Assembly: GCA_951406725.2 (NCBI GenBank)
Contig: CATOCA020000025.1
Location: 1-54,160 of the forward strand
DNA length: 54,160 nt
DNA from: Octopus vulgaris
Lineage: Eukaryota
Reading direction: 5' to 3'
In this document: positions 28,990-54,020 of the stretch, one piece after another
Position numbering within the stretch: the stretch's first letter is position 1
Layout: each line of letters begins with the position of its first letter
Notes under the pieces: model-generated
What the model was told of the DNA's origin: nothing
What the model saw: only the letters and a program-made list of their open reading frames with translations
Databases searched by the model: none
Program-made: the position numbers and the translations under genes

Positions 28990-29900
28990 AATGACCATGG
29001 AAGCATTTAGGCAGGTGTTATGTTTGTTTATTGTACTTGCATTTGGATCTATGGAAGAATCTAAAGGTGCAAAAGAACTTATGCTTACATGTAGAGGATG
29101 CTTCATGTTGTTTATTGAGTAATTGCAGAGAATTATTAATTAATATTTGGAGGGCTTCTTTCAGGCAGAGTCCACATATGGAGTGCTGGCCTTGCTATAT
29201 GATGCCAGAGTCTATTATTGTCCAAGGTATCCTATATGATACTTTCCTATTTATCAGGTGGTGTATGTGGTTGGCTAGGGATGTAGATTTACTATGTTCT
29301 TCATATTTAAATGAATTTAGATGTGCAGAATATCTCTGTTTAAAACTCATAGTAGACTCGGTGTAGTAGTTAGTAGAATTATGTAATATGTTGCAAACAA
29401 CGCATTTGTACACTACGTTAAACCTTCTGCAGTGGGCTTGCAGCGGGCATTCAGTCCTGAATTGGCAGTTGCAGCTATCTGTCCTACATGGGTTAATTGT
29501 GGAGAGGGAAGATGTACTATCTATGGACAAATTAAAGTTAAGGGTGGTATTAGGGCATTGGCTCATATCATTATTATTGCTGTTATTATTTTTATTTCTA
29601 TTATTATTATTAGTAGTAATAGTAGTATTAGTAAGTGTTAGTAGTAGCAGCAGTGCTATTAGTATTAGTATTCATTTTAGCCATATTCTGACCTTCTTCG
29701 GAAGCAGGCGATGTTTGCATCCTGGTTTGTGCTGGTTATAGTGCTAGGGTTATGGGTGTGGTTTATGTTATCATGTTCAGTGTTTTCACTGTATTGACCT
29801 ATGTTATGATTATATATATTTAGGTAGCAGGAATTAATTTTATGCTTATTAGATGAGTTAACAATAAATTCGATATTGGGCAGAGAGGAATAGGATAATT
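28990..29900 (-). mobile_element. Degenerate PLE GIY-YIG endonuclease region (Naiad-like cysteine pattern)
   Basis: ORF 29195-29566: SCNCQ..ECPLQAHC..NVVYKCVV...YY....SFKQRYSAHLNSFK....STSLANHIHHL.....PWTII. Confidence 0.75.
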
Positions 29901-34112: not shown

Positions 34113-34119
34113 TATATAT

Positions 34120-34255
34120 CTTCCCTTCTCCTATGTTTCCGATGAAGAGCTCCCCTCGAAATGTTAAACCCTCCTTCTTTCCTGAGCATCCAATAATACT
34201 ATATTTGTTCCACGTCCTCGTGTTGTGTTTTATTGTGCTTTCTTGTTTGGATTAA
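34120..34255 (+). repeat. Short interspersed repeat with a decayed hammerhead-like core
   Basis: gttt CCGATGA agagctcccctc GAAAT gtta aac: spacing is hammerhead-like but the core carries substitutions. Confidence 0.35.
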
Positions 34256-34385
34256 CTTTATATATATACATACGTATATATATATATATACACATATATA
34301 TACATACATATATATATATATATATACATATATTTACATACATATACATATATATATATATACATACATACATATATTTACATAC

Positions 34386-34420
<35 letters not shown>

Positions 34421-34451
34421 CATACATATACATACATATATATATATGTAT

Positions 34452-34482
<31 letters not shown>

Positions 34483-34489
34483 CATATAT

Positions 34490-37058
34490 AATTCATAAAT
34501 GAGATTCCATTATTACCATATCGGACCGATTTCAGAGTTAGCTACTAAGAGCCCTCTCTTCATCAGTGATACACGTGGCAAAAGAAATAAATGAGATACT
34601 TACTCATACCCATGGAAGAAGCAAATACTAAGTCATGGGTACAACTAAGGACCCCAAATACATCCAAAATAGAAATACTCTAGCCCATTCGAGGCACGTG
34701 CAATTTGAACTGAGGCTCTCACAGAGTGAGTTAGTTAGTTCGGAAGTGAACGCTTAAATTTATATCAAATGTGAGGATAAAATTCTTTTCGAAAAAAAAT
34801 ATTTTCTCCAAAAAAATTTTATCAATGGCCAGCATATCAAAAAATACCTTTAACGGTTAAATTTATAAACAATTCATAAATGAGGGCAAAGGAAAAAATT
34901 TCTGATGCCAAATAGGCCGAAAAATTGGACATATTGTCCATTAACCATATAATTTTTTCACAATACGCACGCTACTCGAAAAAAGGTCAACAGAAATTTC
35001 TAAAAAATTCCATTATTACCATATCGGACCGATTTCAGAGTTAGCTACTAAGAGCCCTCCCTTCGTCAGTGATACATGTGGCAAAAGAAATAAATGAGAT
35101 ACTTACTCATACCCACAGAAGAAGCAAATACTAAGTCATGGGCACAACTAAGTACCCCAAATACATCCAAAATAGAAATGCCTCGAATGGGCTAGAGTAT
35201 TTCTATTTTGGATGTATTTGGGATACTTAGTTGTGCCCATGACTTAGTATTTGCTTCTTCAATGGGTATGAGTAAGTATCTCATTTATTTCTTTTGCCAC
35301 GTGTATCACTGACGAAGAGGGCTCTTAGTAGCTAACTCTGAAATCGGTCCGATATGGTAATAATGGAATTTTTAGAAACTTCTGTTGACCTTTTTCGAGT
35401 AGCATGCGTATTGTGAAAAAATTATATGGTTAATGGACAATATGTCCAATTTTTCGGCATATTTGGCATTAGAAATTTTTTCCTTTGCCCTCATTTATGA
35501 ATTGTTTATAAATTTAACCGTTAAAAGTATTTTTTAATATACTGGCCATTGATAAAATTATTTTCGAGAAAATATTTTTTTTCGAAAAGAATTTTATCCT
35601 CACATTTGATATAAATTTAAGCTGTGAGAGCCTCAGTTCAAATCGCACATGCCTCGAATGGGCTAGAGTATTTCTATTTTGGATGTATTTGGGGTACTTA
35701 GTTGTGCCCATGACTTAGTATTTGCTTCTTCTGTGGGTATGAGTAAGTATCTCATTTATTTCTTTTGCCACATGTATCACTGATGAAGAGAGGGTTCTTA
35801 GTAGCTAACTCTGAAATCGGTCCGATATGGTAATAATGGAATTTTTTAGAAATTTCTGTTGACCTTTTTTCGAGTAGAGTGCGTATTGTGAAAAAATTAT
35901 ATGGTTAATGGAGAATATGTCCAATTTTTCGGCATATTTGGCATTAGAAATTTTTTCCTTTGCCTTCATTTATGAATTGTTTATAAATTTAACCGTTAAA
36001 GGTATTTTTTGATATGCTGGCCATTGATAAAAATTTTTTCGAGAAAATATTTTTTTTCGAAAAGAATTTTATCCTCACATTTGATATAAATTTAAATGTT
36101 CACTTCCGAACTAACTAACTCACTCTGTGAGAGCCTCAGTTCAAATCACACGTGCCTCAAATGAGCTAGAGTATTTCTATTTTGGATGTATTTAGGGTAC
36201 TTAGTTGTGCCCATGACTTAGTATTTGTTTCTTCCATGGGTATGAGTAAGTATCTCATTTATTTCTTTTGCCACATGTATCACTGACGAAGAGAGGGCTC
36301 TTAGTAGCTAACTCTGAAATCGGTCCGATATGGTAATAATGGAATTTTTTAGAAATTTCTGTTGACCTTTGTTCGAGTAGCGTGCGTATTGTGAAAAAAT
36401 TATATGGTTAATGGACAATATGTCCAATTTTTCGGCATATTTGGCATTGGAAATTTTTTCCTTTGCCCTCATTTATGAATTGTTTATAAATTTAACCGTT
36501 AAATGTATTTTTTAATATAAGGGCCATTGATAAAATTTTTTTGGAGAAAATATTTTTTTCGGAAACAATTTTATCCTCACATTTGATATAAATTTAAGCT
36601 GTAAGAGCCTCAGTTCAAATCGCACGGGCCTCGAATGGGCTAGAGTATTTCTATTTTGGATGTATTTGGGGTACTTAGTTGTGCCCATGACTTAGTATTT
36701 GCTTCTTCCATGGGTATAAGTAAGTATCTCATTTATTTCTTTTGCCACATGTATCACTGACGAAGAGAGGGCTCTTAGTAGCTAACTCTGAAATCGGTCC
36801 GATATGGTAATAATGGAATTTTTTAGAAATTTCTGTTGACCTTTTTTCGAGTAGTGTGCATATTGTGAAAAAATTATATGGTTAATGGACAATATGTCCA
36901 ATTTTTCGGCATATTTGGCATTAGAAATTTTTTCCTTTGCCCTCTTTCATGAATTGTTTATAAATTTAACCGTTAAAGGTATTTTTTAATATGCAGGCCA
37001 TTGATAAATTTTTTTGGAGAAAATATTTTTTTTCAAAAAGAATTGTATCCTCACATTT

Positions 37059-37060
<2 letters not shown>
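34490..37060. repeat. Tandem array of ~470/500-bp units, each carrying a hammerhead-like motif; the first ~700 bp are inverted relative to the rest
   Basis: CTGA(C/T)GA cores at 35309, 35780, 36283, 36757 (+) and about 34560, 35063 (-); inversion point near 35179. Confidence 0.9.
35298..35357 (+). ncRNA. Hammerhead-like motif, representative copy (others at ~35770, ~36273, ~36747 on +; ~34518, ~35020 on -)
   Basis: gtatca CTGACGA agag(ag)ggctcttagtagctaactct GAAA tcg GTC cgatat. Stem II agag/ctct; stem I gtatc/gatat with an A-C mismatch next to the core. Confidence 0.65.
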
Positions 37061-37093
<33 letters not shown>

Positions 37094-37485
37094 GTATATG
37101 TATATATATATATATGTATATGTATATATATATATGTATATGTATATATATATATATGTATATGTATATGTATGTATATATATGTATATATATATATATA
37201 TATATGTATATGTATATATATATGTATATATATAAGTATATATATATGTATATGTATATATGTATATGTATATATATAAGTATATATATATGTATATATA
37301 TATGTATATATATGTATATATATATATGTATATGTATGTATATGTATATGTATATGTATATATATATGTATATATATGTATATATATATATGTATATGTA
37401 TATATATGTATATGTATATATATGTATATGTATATATATATATATGTATATGTATATATATGTATATGTATATATATGTATATGT

Positions 37486-37517
<32 letters not shown>

Positions 37518-37782
37518 GTATATGTATATGTATATGTATATATATATGTATATATATGTATATGTATATATATATGTATATGTATATATATATGTATATG
37601 TATATATATATGTATATGTATATATATATGTATATGTATATATATATGTATATGTATATATATGTATATATGTATATGTGTATATGTATATATATATATG
37701 TGTATATGTATATATATATGTATATGTATATATATATATGTATATATATGTATATATATATGTGTATATATATATGTATATA

Positions 37783-37827
<45 letters not shown>

Positions 37828-37898
37828 GTATATATATGTATATATATATGTATATGTGTATATATATATGTATATATATATGTATATATATGTATATA

Positions 37899-37953
<55 letters not shown>

Positions 37954-37954
37954 G

Positions 37955-37987
<33 letters not shown>

Positions 37988-38090
37988 GCATATATATATA
38001 TGTATATATATATATGTATATATATATGTATATATATATGTGTATGTATATATATATGTATATATATATGTATATATATATATGTATATA

Positions 38091-38135
<45 letters not shown>

Positions 38136-38205
38136 GTATATATATATATGTATGTATATATATATGTATATATATATATGTATATATATATGTATATATA
38201 TAACA
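37059..38205. repeat. Compound (TA)n/(TATG)n microsatellite, ~1.1 kb
   Basis: Directly visible. Confidence 0.98.
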
Positions 38206-38649
38206 TATATATTCACTTTATTTATTTTTTATTTATTTTCCATTTTATTGTAATGTTATCAATCTTTGCATCTAGTCTTCTATTTATTTATTTATTTATT
38301 TGCCTATTTAAGTGTAGATGTTTACATACATATCAAGTCATCTAATTTGTTACCTATTTATTTTTTTTTTTTTTTTTTTTTTTTACTTATTTACTTATAC
38401 TGGGGTAGTTTTATACATACATATCTATCATTTATTTTTATTTAATTTTAATAATATATGAATACATATATACTGGTTTGTACTTATAATTATGTGTATA
38501 ACCGTATTTATTCCTTCGTATTTATTCCTTCTTATTTATTTTATCACTTTTCATCTTAAGTCTTTATAATATAAAATTTATTTAAAATTTCTGTGATGTT
38601 CTCATAAGCGTTTACATTAGTACTTCCCCTTCTATTTTTTAAATGCCTA

Positions 38650-48530: not shown

Positions 48531-48552
48531 TATATATATATATATGTATATA

Positions 48553-48722
48553 TATGTCCAATTTTTCGGCATATTTGGCATTAGAAATTTTTTCCTTTGC
48601 CCTCATTCATGAATTGTTTATAAATTTAACCGTTAAAGGTATTTTTAATATGCAGGCCATTGATAAATTTTTTTCGAGAAAATATTTTTTTTGAAAAAGA
48701 ATTGTATCCTCACATTTGATAT
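48553..48722 (+). repeat. Dispersed fragment of the 34490-37060 repeat unit, lacking the hammerhead
   Basis: Near-identical to 36893-37061. Confidence 0.9.
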
Positions 48723-48738
48723 ATACATACATACATTT

Positions 48739-53309: not shown

Positions 53310-54020
53310 GTCCGTCGCTACAGACAATGTCTTCTAAAATAAAAACTAATTGCGACTATACTTCTAACACACACATATACATACACATAGATATACGGGA
53401 ATTAACGGTAAAACAGGAATTTACAGGGATATAAAACAATAATTCGATACACATATACATATACATACAGATATATACACGCATGTGACAAATAATAATT
53501 GCGACTATACTTCTAACACACACATATACATACACATAGATATACGGGAATTAACGGTAAAACAAGAATTTACGGAGATATAAACAAGAATTCGATACAC
53601 ATATACATACAGATATATGCACGCTACAGACAATGTCTTCTAAAATAAGAACTAATTGCGACTATACTTCTAACACACACATATACATACACATAGATAT
53701 ACGGGAATTAACGGTAAAACAAGAATTTACGGAGATATAAACAAGAATTCGATACACATATACATATACATACAGATATATACACGCATGTGACAAATAA
53801 TATTTGCGACTATACTTCTAACACACACATATACATACACATAGATATACGGAAATTAACGGTAAAACAGGAATTTACGGAGATATAAACAAGAATTCGA
53901 TACACATATACATACAGATATATACACGCATGTGACAAATAATATTTTTATATTTAGGATAGATATGCCGGAATTTACGATAAAACAAGAATTTACGGAG
54001 ATATAAACAAGAATTCGATT
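53310..54020. repeat. About five tandem ~150-bp units upstream of LINE ORF1
   Basis: ttgcgactatacttctaacac at about 53350, 53499, 53656 and 53804, plus a partial fifth unit. Confidence 0.9.

What the first reader, a model, noticed from the sequence alone, without database searches (positions are those of the whole stretch)
34490..37060. Six-copy hammerhead tandem array with a fold-back inversion
Seen: non-coding units alternate between about 472 and 503 bp because of a ~29-bp indel (gttcacttccgaactaactaactcactct). Each has CTGAYGA...GAAAtcgGTC with a near-palindromic minimal stem III (ATCGGT). Two copies face minus and four face plus, meeting near 35179 in a fold-back with arms of about 650 bp. 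Known: minimal PLE-type hammerheads cleave as dimers, which tandem copies allow, and PLE reverse transcription produces tandem and inverted pLTRs. Inference: a multimeric retrozyme-like insert whose transcript could be cut into ~0.5-kb monomers and also form long dsRNA. All six copies have an A-C mismatch at the first stem I pair, so activity is uncertain.
Basis: partly seen in the sequence, partly recalled or inferred. Interest (0 to 1): 0.72.

Follow-up and report, generated by a model that had tools for sequence, protein, structure and literature searches.

The report
Longest copy of a Penelope-type retrozyme
This is the longest copy we found of a non-coding repeat that carries a predicted self-cutting RNA and is scattered hundreds of times through this animal genome; its back-to-back layout is shared by most copies examined and is likely the ordinary footprint of pasting by a Penelope-like retrotransposon.

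Summary
The array is real: six hammerhead cores (four +, two -), units of 473/503/474 and 503 bp, a 28-bp indel and a head-to-head junction at 35179. It is not a one-off. The 503-bp unit is a dispersed family (793 exact hammerhead matches in G000, control 0). Copies sit in (TA)n, have variable 5' ends and two fixed 3' ends about 108 nt apart. 44 of 72 inserts examined are two inverted arms, and 33 of those pair one end type with the other, as this array does. That is the published Penelope-like-element insertion pattern (inverted truncated copy, one-sided tail). Helix II covaries between subfamilies, and the A·C mismatch is family-wide, not decay. Special here: it is the longest of 85 loci, and the deletion in alternate units is private to it. 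No autonomous partner with matching ends was found; cleavage and expression are untested. The scan already reported this kind of element, from other repeat families, in this genome. Verdict: new member of the animal non-LTR retrozymes; modest interest.

The parts
34490..37062 (.). Whole bipartite insert, 2573 bp, between (TA)n tracts
34259..34489 (.). Left (TA)n-type microsatellite, target site
34490..34503 (-). Fixed 3' end E1 (unit 143-156), joined by a template jump to unit position 20
34504..35179 (-). Minus arm: unit 351-503, one full 503-bp unit, unit 1-20
34513..34581 (-). Hammerhead, core starts 34566, predicted cut after 34524
34725..34752 (-). 28-bp segment present (long unit)
35016..35084 (-). 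Hammerhead, core starts 35069, predicted cut after 35027
35179..35179 (.). Head-to-head junction of two 5'-truncated arms (unit 351 and unit 331), one shared base
35179..37062 (+). Plus arm: unit 331-503, short unit, long unit, short unit, unit 1-264
35294..35360 (+). Hammerhead with a 2-nt deletion in helix II, core starts 35309, predicted cut after 35349
35350..35822 (+). Short unit P1 (473 bp, lacks the 28 bp); ends in the hammerhead whose core starts at 35780
35823..36325 (+). Long unit P2 (503 bp, reference unit); ends in the hammerhead whose core starts at 36283; 28-bp segment at 36097-36124
36326..36799 (+). Short unit P3 (474 bp, lacks the 28 bp); ends in the hammerhead whose core starts at 36757
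36800..37062 (+). Terminal partial unit P4 ending at fixed 3' end E2 (unit 264)
37063..38212 (.). Right (TA)n-type microsatellite, target site
48552..48723 (+). Solo fragment (unit 94-264) sharing P4's private variants; local sister or daughter of P4

Best explanation
The array is one insert of a dispersed, non-coding 503-bp repeat family with a predicted type I hammerhead in each unit, and it was likely written into a (TA)n tract by the reverse transcriptase and endonuclease of a Penelope-like element acting on a multimeric or circular RNA. Shown: family size, (TA)n targets, two fixed 3' ends (unit about 156 and about 264), variable 5' ends, head-to-head arms that pair one end type with the other, and helix II covariation. 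Inferred: both nicked DNA strands primed reverse transcription, one at each fixed site, on RNA from one source; the two truncated cDNAs were joined at 35179; the short-long-short pattern comes from a period-2 template or from a duplication soon after insertion, with later gene conversion. Predicted: the ribozyme needs a dimer and probably a protein, cuts slowly, and is often read through. This locus is most likely a drifting, passive copy.
For: Family: 106 matches from 40 scored of 3138 candidates; 239, 793 and 746 pattern hits with control 0. Architecture: 44 of 72 inserts in 70 loci are bipartite inverted, 33 of the 44 are E1+E2, 2 are E2+E2, 0 are E1+E1, 9 have one end elsewhere. In the 45 loci picked by hammerhead pattern only, 14 are clean E1|E2, none clean E1|E1 or E2|E2, 3 mixed, 23 with one end called, 5 with none. 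Fixed ends abut (TA)n. Opposite arms of one insert share derived alleles at 65 of 322 sites against 611 of 33062 across loci; 12 of 93 in this array. Two compensatory pairs in helix II, 13 cells, 0 of 500 shuffles as high (related sequences inflate this). Core changes 5 of 360 against 147 of 1470 between flanking anchors in 30 copies chosen without the core. Unit folds at z = -5.05 against 40 shuffles. Window copies are 2-3.6% from the subfamily majority, like dispersed copies at 2.4%. Intact RT plus GIY-YIG Penelope-type ORFs that also end in (TA)n exist in G000. Inverted truncated copy, one-sided tail and (TA)n bias are described for PLEs (PMC8557442, passages); two internal priming sites define the tail (PMC11167929).
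Against: No autonomous PLE among the roughly six families examined shares its terminal repeat with the unit. The one head-to-head chimera with a Neptune-like PLE (L129) is equivocal: the PLE arm is 99% identical to its family, the retrozyme arm about 90% to the nearest copies held. The distance between the fixed ends (about 108 nt) is longer than the published 30-40 bp tail. By column, core conservation is not significant (0 of 12 against 12 of 49 recurrent columns, p = 0.10). 5' truncations are not enriched at the cut site (4 of 138 at unit 1-5, at least one of them a scoring artefact). The monomer is predicted to favour an inactive fold (-18.2 against -11.8 kcal/mol), and 10.1-11.1 is A-U rather than G-C. 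Shared alleles between arms could come from gene conversion instead of a shared template.
Confidence: 0.8

Rival explanations
1. A short ordinary insert was lengthened at the DNA level (unequal crossover or slippage of a short+long block) well after insertion, so the six-copy array says nothing about the RNA template.
For: The 28-bp deletion occurs only here (38 long alleles and 0 short in other loci; 1 exact hit genome-wide) yet in two units; P4 has a local sister 11.5 kb away; no other of 85 loci has more than three cores.
Against: P1 and P3 differ at 18 of 472 sites, nearly as many as P1-P2 (21 of 473) and other pairs, so any duplication is about as old as the insertion. It does not explain the E1/E2 ends.
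Confidence: 0.25
2. The unit is the terminal repeat of an autonomous PLE that was not found, and the copies are its 5'-truncated 3' ends.
For: PLE 3' ends greatly outnumber full copies and carry such hammerheads (PMC4209133); only about six PLE families were inspected.
Against: Copies that extend past one unit continue into another unit, never into an ORF, in the loci examined; 21 exact tandem pairs have unit spacing.
Confidence: 0.08
3. The inversion is a sequencing or assembly fold-back on a small unplaced contig.
For: The window is a whole 54-kb contig; no listed contig piece bridged 35179 (lists truncated, repeat breaks contigs).
Against: The arms are not mirror copies (5 of 151 and 17 of 473 differences plus the 28-bp indel), start at different offsets, and end at E1 and E2 like 33 inserts on chromosome-scale contigs; P4's private variants recur at 48552-48723, so they are not base-call noise.
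Confidence: 0.03
4. The locus is a maintained source of long double-stranded RNA or of monomers that regulate the family.
For: 34504-35860 is predicted 95% paired; all six cores are intact; it is the longest array found.
Against: Copies have drifted as far as dispersed copies, one core has a helix II deletion, and most inserts can fold back too. No promoter or locus-specific transcript was shown.
Confidence: 0.04

Closest known systems
Animal non-LTR retrozymes (PMC7229834, passages and parts 2-3 of 6 read; bioRxiv 10.64898/2026.07.22.740005, parts 1-3 of 5 read)
   Same: Non-coding, low-GC, self-paired unit with one type I hammerhead, weak palindromic helix III, tandem copies, size variants from a 20-30 nt indel (coral has a 20-nt indel), most families with at most seven units.
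   Different: Unit is 503 nt (170-400 nt in PMC7229834, up to 972 in the preprint); mostly sub-unit to dimer inserts in inverted pairs; cleavage and circular RNA not shown; A2.1·C1.1 and A10.1-U11.1.
EN+ Penelope-like elements: insertion structure (PMC8557442, passages; PMC11167929, parts 1-2 of 4)
   Same: 5' truncation, partial tandems, inverted truncated copy, tail on one end only, (TA)n targets, internal priming at two sites, hammerhead upstream of the 3' ends.
   Different: No ORF; tail about 108 nt instead of 30-40 bp; no matching autonomous partner found.
Minimal PLE hammerheads (PMC4209133, parts 1-2 of 4)
   Same: Intact core, near-palindromic helix III suited to dimers, long helix II, pairs of cores on opposite strands 100-700 bp apart already noted in Schistosoma.
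   Different: Helix I is extended (4 + 6 bp around a 4-nt bulge) rather than short; the conserved G10.1-C11.1 pair is A-U here.
Non-autonomous Chlamys elements such as MRC1 (PMC8557442, passage)
   Same: Non-autonomous PLE passengers with multicopy head-to-tail insertions.
   Different: Those lack canonical hammerheads and usually resemble their partner at the 3' end.

Membership tests
Animal non-LTR retrozyme | Type I hammerhead in every tandem unit | tested here: met
Animal non-LTR retrozyme | Non-coding, GC below 50%, strongly self-paired | tested here: met
   GC about 33%; no ORF of 130 aa or more in the array; z = -5.05
Animal non-LTR retrozyme | Dispersed, with monomers, dimers and multimers | tested here: met
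   793 cores, 21 exact tandem pairs, 4 of them in this array
Animal non-LTR retrozyme | Unit of about 170-400 nt (PMC7229834); 51-972 bp in the 2026 preprint | tested here: inconclusive
   503 nt: above the first range, inside the second
Animal non-LTR retrozyme | Self-cleavage in vitro | not testable with these tools
   folding only
Animal non-LTR retrozyme | Accumulates as linear and circular RNA | not testable with these tools
   only contigs of runs guessed to be RNA were available
Autonomous EN+ PLE | ORF with RT and GIY-YIG endonuclease | tested here: not met
   none in the array or collinear upstream of copies
PLE-mobilised passenger | 5' truncation, partial tandems and an inverted truncated copy | tested here: met
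PLE-mobilised passenger | Tail extension at one end only (30-40 bp in print) | tested here: met
   33 of 44 E1+E2, but about 108 nt long
PLE-mobilised passenger | Insertion into (TA)n | tested here: met
PLE-mobilised passenger | 3'-end similarity to an autonomous partner | tested here: inconclusive
   none with the roughly six families fetched; not all PLE families screened
Minimal PLE hammerhead | CUGAnGA and GAAA core, UH cut site, palindromic helix III | tested here: met
   AUCGGU forms 6 bp with a second copy, -4.5 kcal/mol
Minimal PLE hammerhead | G10.1-C11.1 pair with an extra base before it; short helix I | tested here: not met
   A-U at the base of helix II in 19 of 20 aligned copies; helix I 4 + 6 bp

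The most novel reading that the evidence does not exclude
This insert records a PLE enzyme copying one heterodimeric (short + long, about 980 nt) retrozyme circle for more than two rounds from one nick and more than one unit from the other nick, each from its own fixed site. The one-sided PLE tail would then be an obligatory two-site, two-strand priming rule, here stretched to 108 nt, and a slow hammerhead with a fixed A·C mismatch would be tuned to leave multimers uncut.
Probability: 0.2. Interest if true: 0.62.

Novelty: new member of a known kind. Interest (0 to 1): 0.36.

Why it matters
How retrozymes get back into genomes has mostly been inferred from co-occurrence with PLEs. A family with hundreds of copies, two fixed priming ends that are almost never paired like with like, and arms that share alleles gives a countable genomic footprint for PLE mobilisation and a natural substrate for the existing in vitro PLE assay. 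This particular locus adds only length and a private deletion that marks template order. It does not look like a functional gene.

Tried and rejected
Rfam: no hammerhead model hit, only hairpin and (TA)n noise. ARAGORN: no tRNA in the window, so no support for a tRNA-type promoter. Sequencing runs: no RNA holder listed on record. Contigs of four DNA-type runs (organism labels A and B) cover the family but no listed piece spans the junction. Four runs guessed to be RNA had 46-90 contigs on the stretch, some across the cut site, but strand, level and RNA origin cannot be shown; neither call is used as evidence. Autonomous partner: two Neptune-like and several Hydra-like PLE families (clade names by motif, no tree) were fetched; none shares its terminal repeat. 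RNA editing lead from e1-8662707: no significant A>G over T>C excess (58 against 53 overall, p = 0.11; shared 11 against 8, p = 0.19). Cut-site junction lead from e1-8797406: 4 of 138 truncations at unit 1-5, about 1.4 expected, not convincing; L014 is one possible case. Core conservation between subfamilies is circular, because those loci were chosen by the core; one search replaces it. In copies chosen by DNA similarity, core and rest drift alike (7 of 426 against 374 of 15718). The energy of the full double hammerhead could not be evaluated (crossing pairs); a constrained fold cost 16 kcal/mol over the unconstrained one. A strict period-2 template fits 5 of 7 shared-variant sets (my count), but the classes were defined after the fact, so it is only suggestive. 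Literature on an A·C mismatch at 2.1-1.1: two searches and look-ups found nothing relevant; Lunse et al. on PLE hammerhead dimers was not held and is known only from its citation in PMC6765202 (passages). Searches listed no paper describing this family; supplements of the retrozyme and PLE papers were not read and could list it.

Full report
Observation. The array runs from 34490 to 37062 between two (TA)n tracts. Six hammerhead cores are present, four on + and two on -. Cut site to cut site, the units are 473, 503 and 474 bp on + and 503 bp on -; the length difference is a 28-bp indel. The minus arm starts at unit 351 and the plus arm at unit 331, and they share one base at 35179. Unit position 1 is the first base after the predicted cut. 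Rfam does not recognise the motif.

It is a family. The window is the whole of contig C55 in a 2.8-Gb assembly. A DNA search gave 3138 candidates; the 40 scored gave 106 matches, the best at 91-97% identity. Exact patterns gave 239 hits for this subfamily, 793 for a broader core and 746 for flanks that ignore the core, each with control 0. Contigs from runs with two organism labels carry the family. Earlier notes in this scan call the genome a cephalopod; I did not test that.

The inversion is the family's insertion footprint. Read in hammerhead sense, copies stop at two fixed places, unit about 156 (E1) and about 264 (E2), and run straight into (TA)n; their 5' ends vary. Of 72 inserts in 70 loci, 44 are two arms joined head to head. 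Of those, 33 have E1 at one end and E2 at the other, 2 have E2 twice, none has E1 twice, and 9 have one end elsewhere. The first 26 loci were chosen by a query that favours E2, so I repeated the count by motif: in the 45 loci chosen by hammerhead pattern only, 14 were clean E1|E2, none clean like-with-like, 3 mixed, 23 had one end called and 5 none. This array obeys the rule: E2 at 37062, and E1 supplied by a 14-bp piece at 34490-34503 that jumps to unit 20. Similar tiny jumped ends occur elsewhere (L015, L026, L056, L144, L150). Craig et al. describe partial tandems, an inverted 5'-truncated copy, a 30-40 bp tail often on one end only and (TA)n bias for PLEs (PMC8557442, passages). Frangieh et al. 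show that the tail lies between two internal priming sites, and that the PLE hammerhead cut only with protein and was not needed for insertion in vitro (PMC11167929, parts 1-2 of 4). Cervera and de la Pena noted opposite-strand hammerhead pairs 100-700 bp apart in Schistosoma (PMC4209133, parts 1-2 of 4).

One source for both arms. Opposite arms of an insert share derived alleles at 65 of 322 sites, against 611 of 33062 across loci; in this array 12 of 93. This fits one RNA or one source locus, but gene conversion could also produce it. There is no significant A>G excess.

The ribozyme. Helix I is 4 + 6 bp around a 4-nt bulge, helix II is 4 + 4 bp around an internal loop, and helix III is one pair closing a near-palindrome that forms 6 bp with a second copy. 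Across 20 aligned copies from several subfamilies, two helix II pairs change on both sides (13 cells, 0 of 500 shuffles as high; relatedness inflates this) while loop II varies. In 30 copies chosen by flanks alone, the core changed at 5 of 360 cells against 147 of 1470 elsewhere; by column the difference is not significant (p = 0.10); 25 of 30 cores were intact. A2.1 is in 30 of 30 and C1.1 in 28 of 30, so the mismatch belongs to the active lineage. Against strong activity: the monomer prefers a fold that pairs CUGA with UCGG (-18.2 against -11.8 kcal/mol), the 10.1-11.1 pair is A-U, 106 segments read through the cut site, and truncations are not enriched there. In the 2026 preprint only one of nine predicted dimers cleaved (part 3 of 5). 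I infer a slow, dimer- and probably protein-dependent ribozyme.

What is special about this copy. Exact tandem pairs number 21 in the genome, 4 of them here. I inspected all 17 others, and no locus of 85 has more than three cores against six here. The 28-bp deletion is private: 38 long and 0 short alleles in other loci, one exact hit genome-wide. It sits in alternate units P1 and P3, which differ at 18 of 472 sites, about as much as any pair. So the period-2 pattern is about as old as the insertion: a short+long template copied more than once, or an early duplication. Copies are 2-3.6% from the subfamily majority, like dispersed copies (2.4%), which points to neutral drift. A fragment at 48552-48723 shares P4's private variants, found only at these two places; this shows the differences are real and that local copying has occurred.

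Artefact check. The arms are not mirror images and end at the family's fixed sites, so a read fold-back is unlikely. Independent contigs could not confirm the junction.

Double-stranded RNA. 34504-35860 is predicted 95% paired. That pairing would cover the cores at 35309 and 35780 in a + transcript and both cores in a - transcript, so at most P3 could be released (inference). No transcript of this locus was shown.

Partner. G000 holds intact PLE ORFs: two Neptune-like families with RT and GIY-YIG motifs and several Hydra-like ones (clades named by motif; Pfam RVT_1 passes for the two Neptune-like proteins, nothing for the three Hydra-like ones). None shares its terminal repeat with the unit. 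L129 joins a truncated unit head to head with a truncated Neptune-like copy, but the two arms differ in apparent age. The mobiliser is unidentified.

Verdict. It works like a non-autonomous PLE passenger and meets the sequence criteria for an animal non-LTR retrozyme (PMC7229834); the RNA-level criteria are untested. Searches listed no paper on this family. New member of a known kind, interest 0.36.

Noticed in passing
window 34118-34258: A second, unrelated repeat end with a variant hammerhead-like core (CCGAUGA, 3-bp helix II) just left of the flanking (TA)n; by eye it resembles the 3' end of the young Neptune-like PLE in L137-L142, whose core is UUGAAGA.
   Followed up: partly
window 48552-48723: Solo fragment of the unit that shares P4's private variants, next to a repeat end that finishes in CTAG (Helitron-like, recalled, not tested).
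   Followed up: yes
window 2356-19644: Satellite array of about 360-380 bp units with internal (TC)n, some 45 copies.
   Followed up: no
window 24192-25142 (-) and 29051-29509 (-): Decayed PLE remnants: a Neptune-like RT-EN piece and a Hydra-like C-terminal piece.
   Followed up: partly
L129:1000-3780: Head-to-head chimera of a truncated unit (E2 end) with a truncated Neptune-like PLE, both outer ends in (TA)n.
   Followed up: yes
L092:425-4173 and L093: Neptune-like PLE family with two overlapping ORFs (495 and 811 codons stop to stop) in which no hammerhead was detected.
   Followed up: partly
L102 and L103: A Hydra-like PLE family also shows two 3' ends about 150 nt apart, one of them on an inverted piece, so long tails may be common in this genome.
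   Followed up: no
L132, L133, L186: Subfamilies with altered helix III loops (UCGC; UCGGG) that would pair less well as dimers.
   Followed up: no
L014:1060-1166: A copy begins at the predicted cut site, joined to about 100 bp of unrelated sequence that itself ends in (TA)n.
   Followed up: partly
window 53316-53944: Tandem repeat with 148- and 305-bp periods at the contig end.
   Followed up: no
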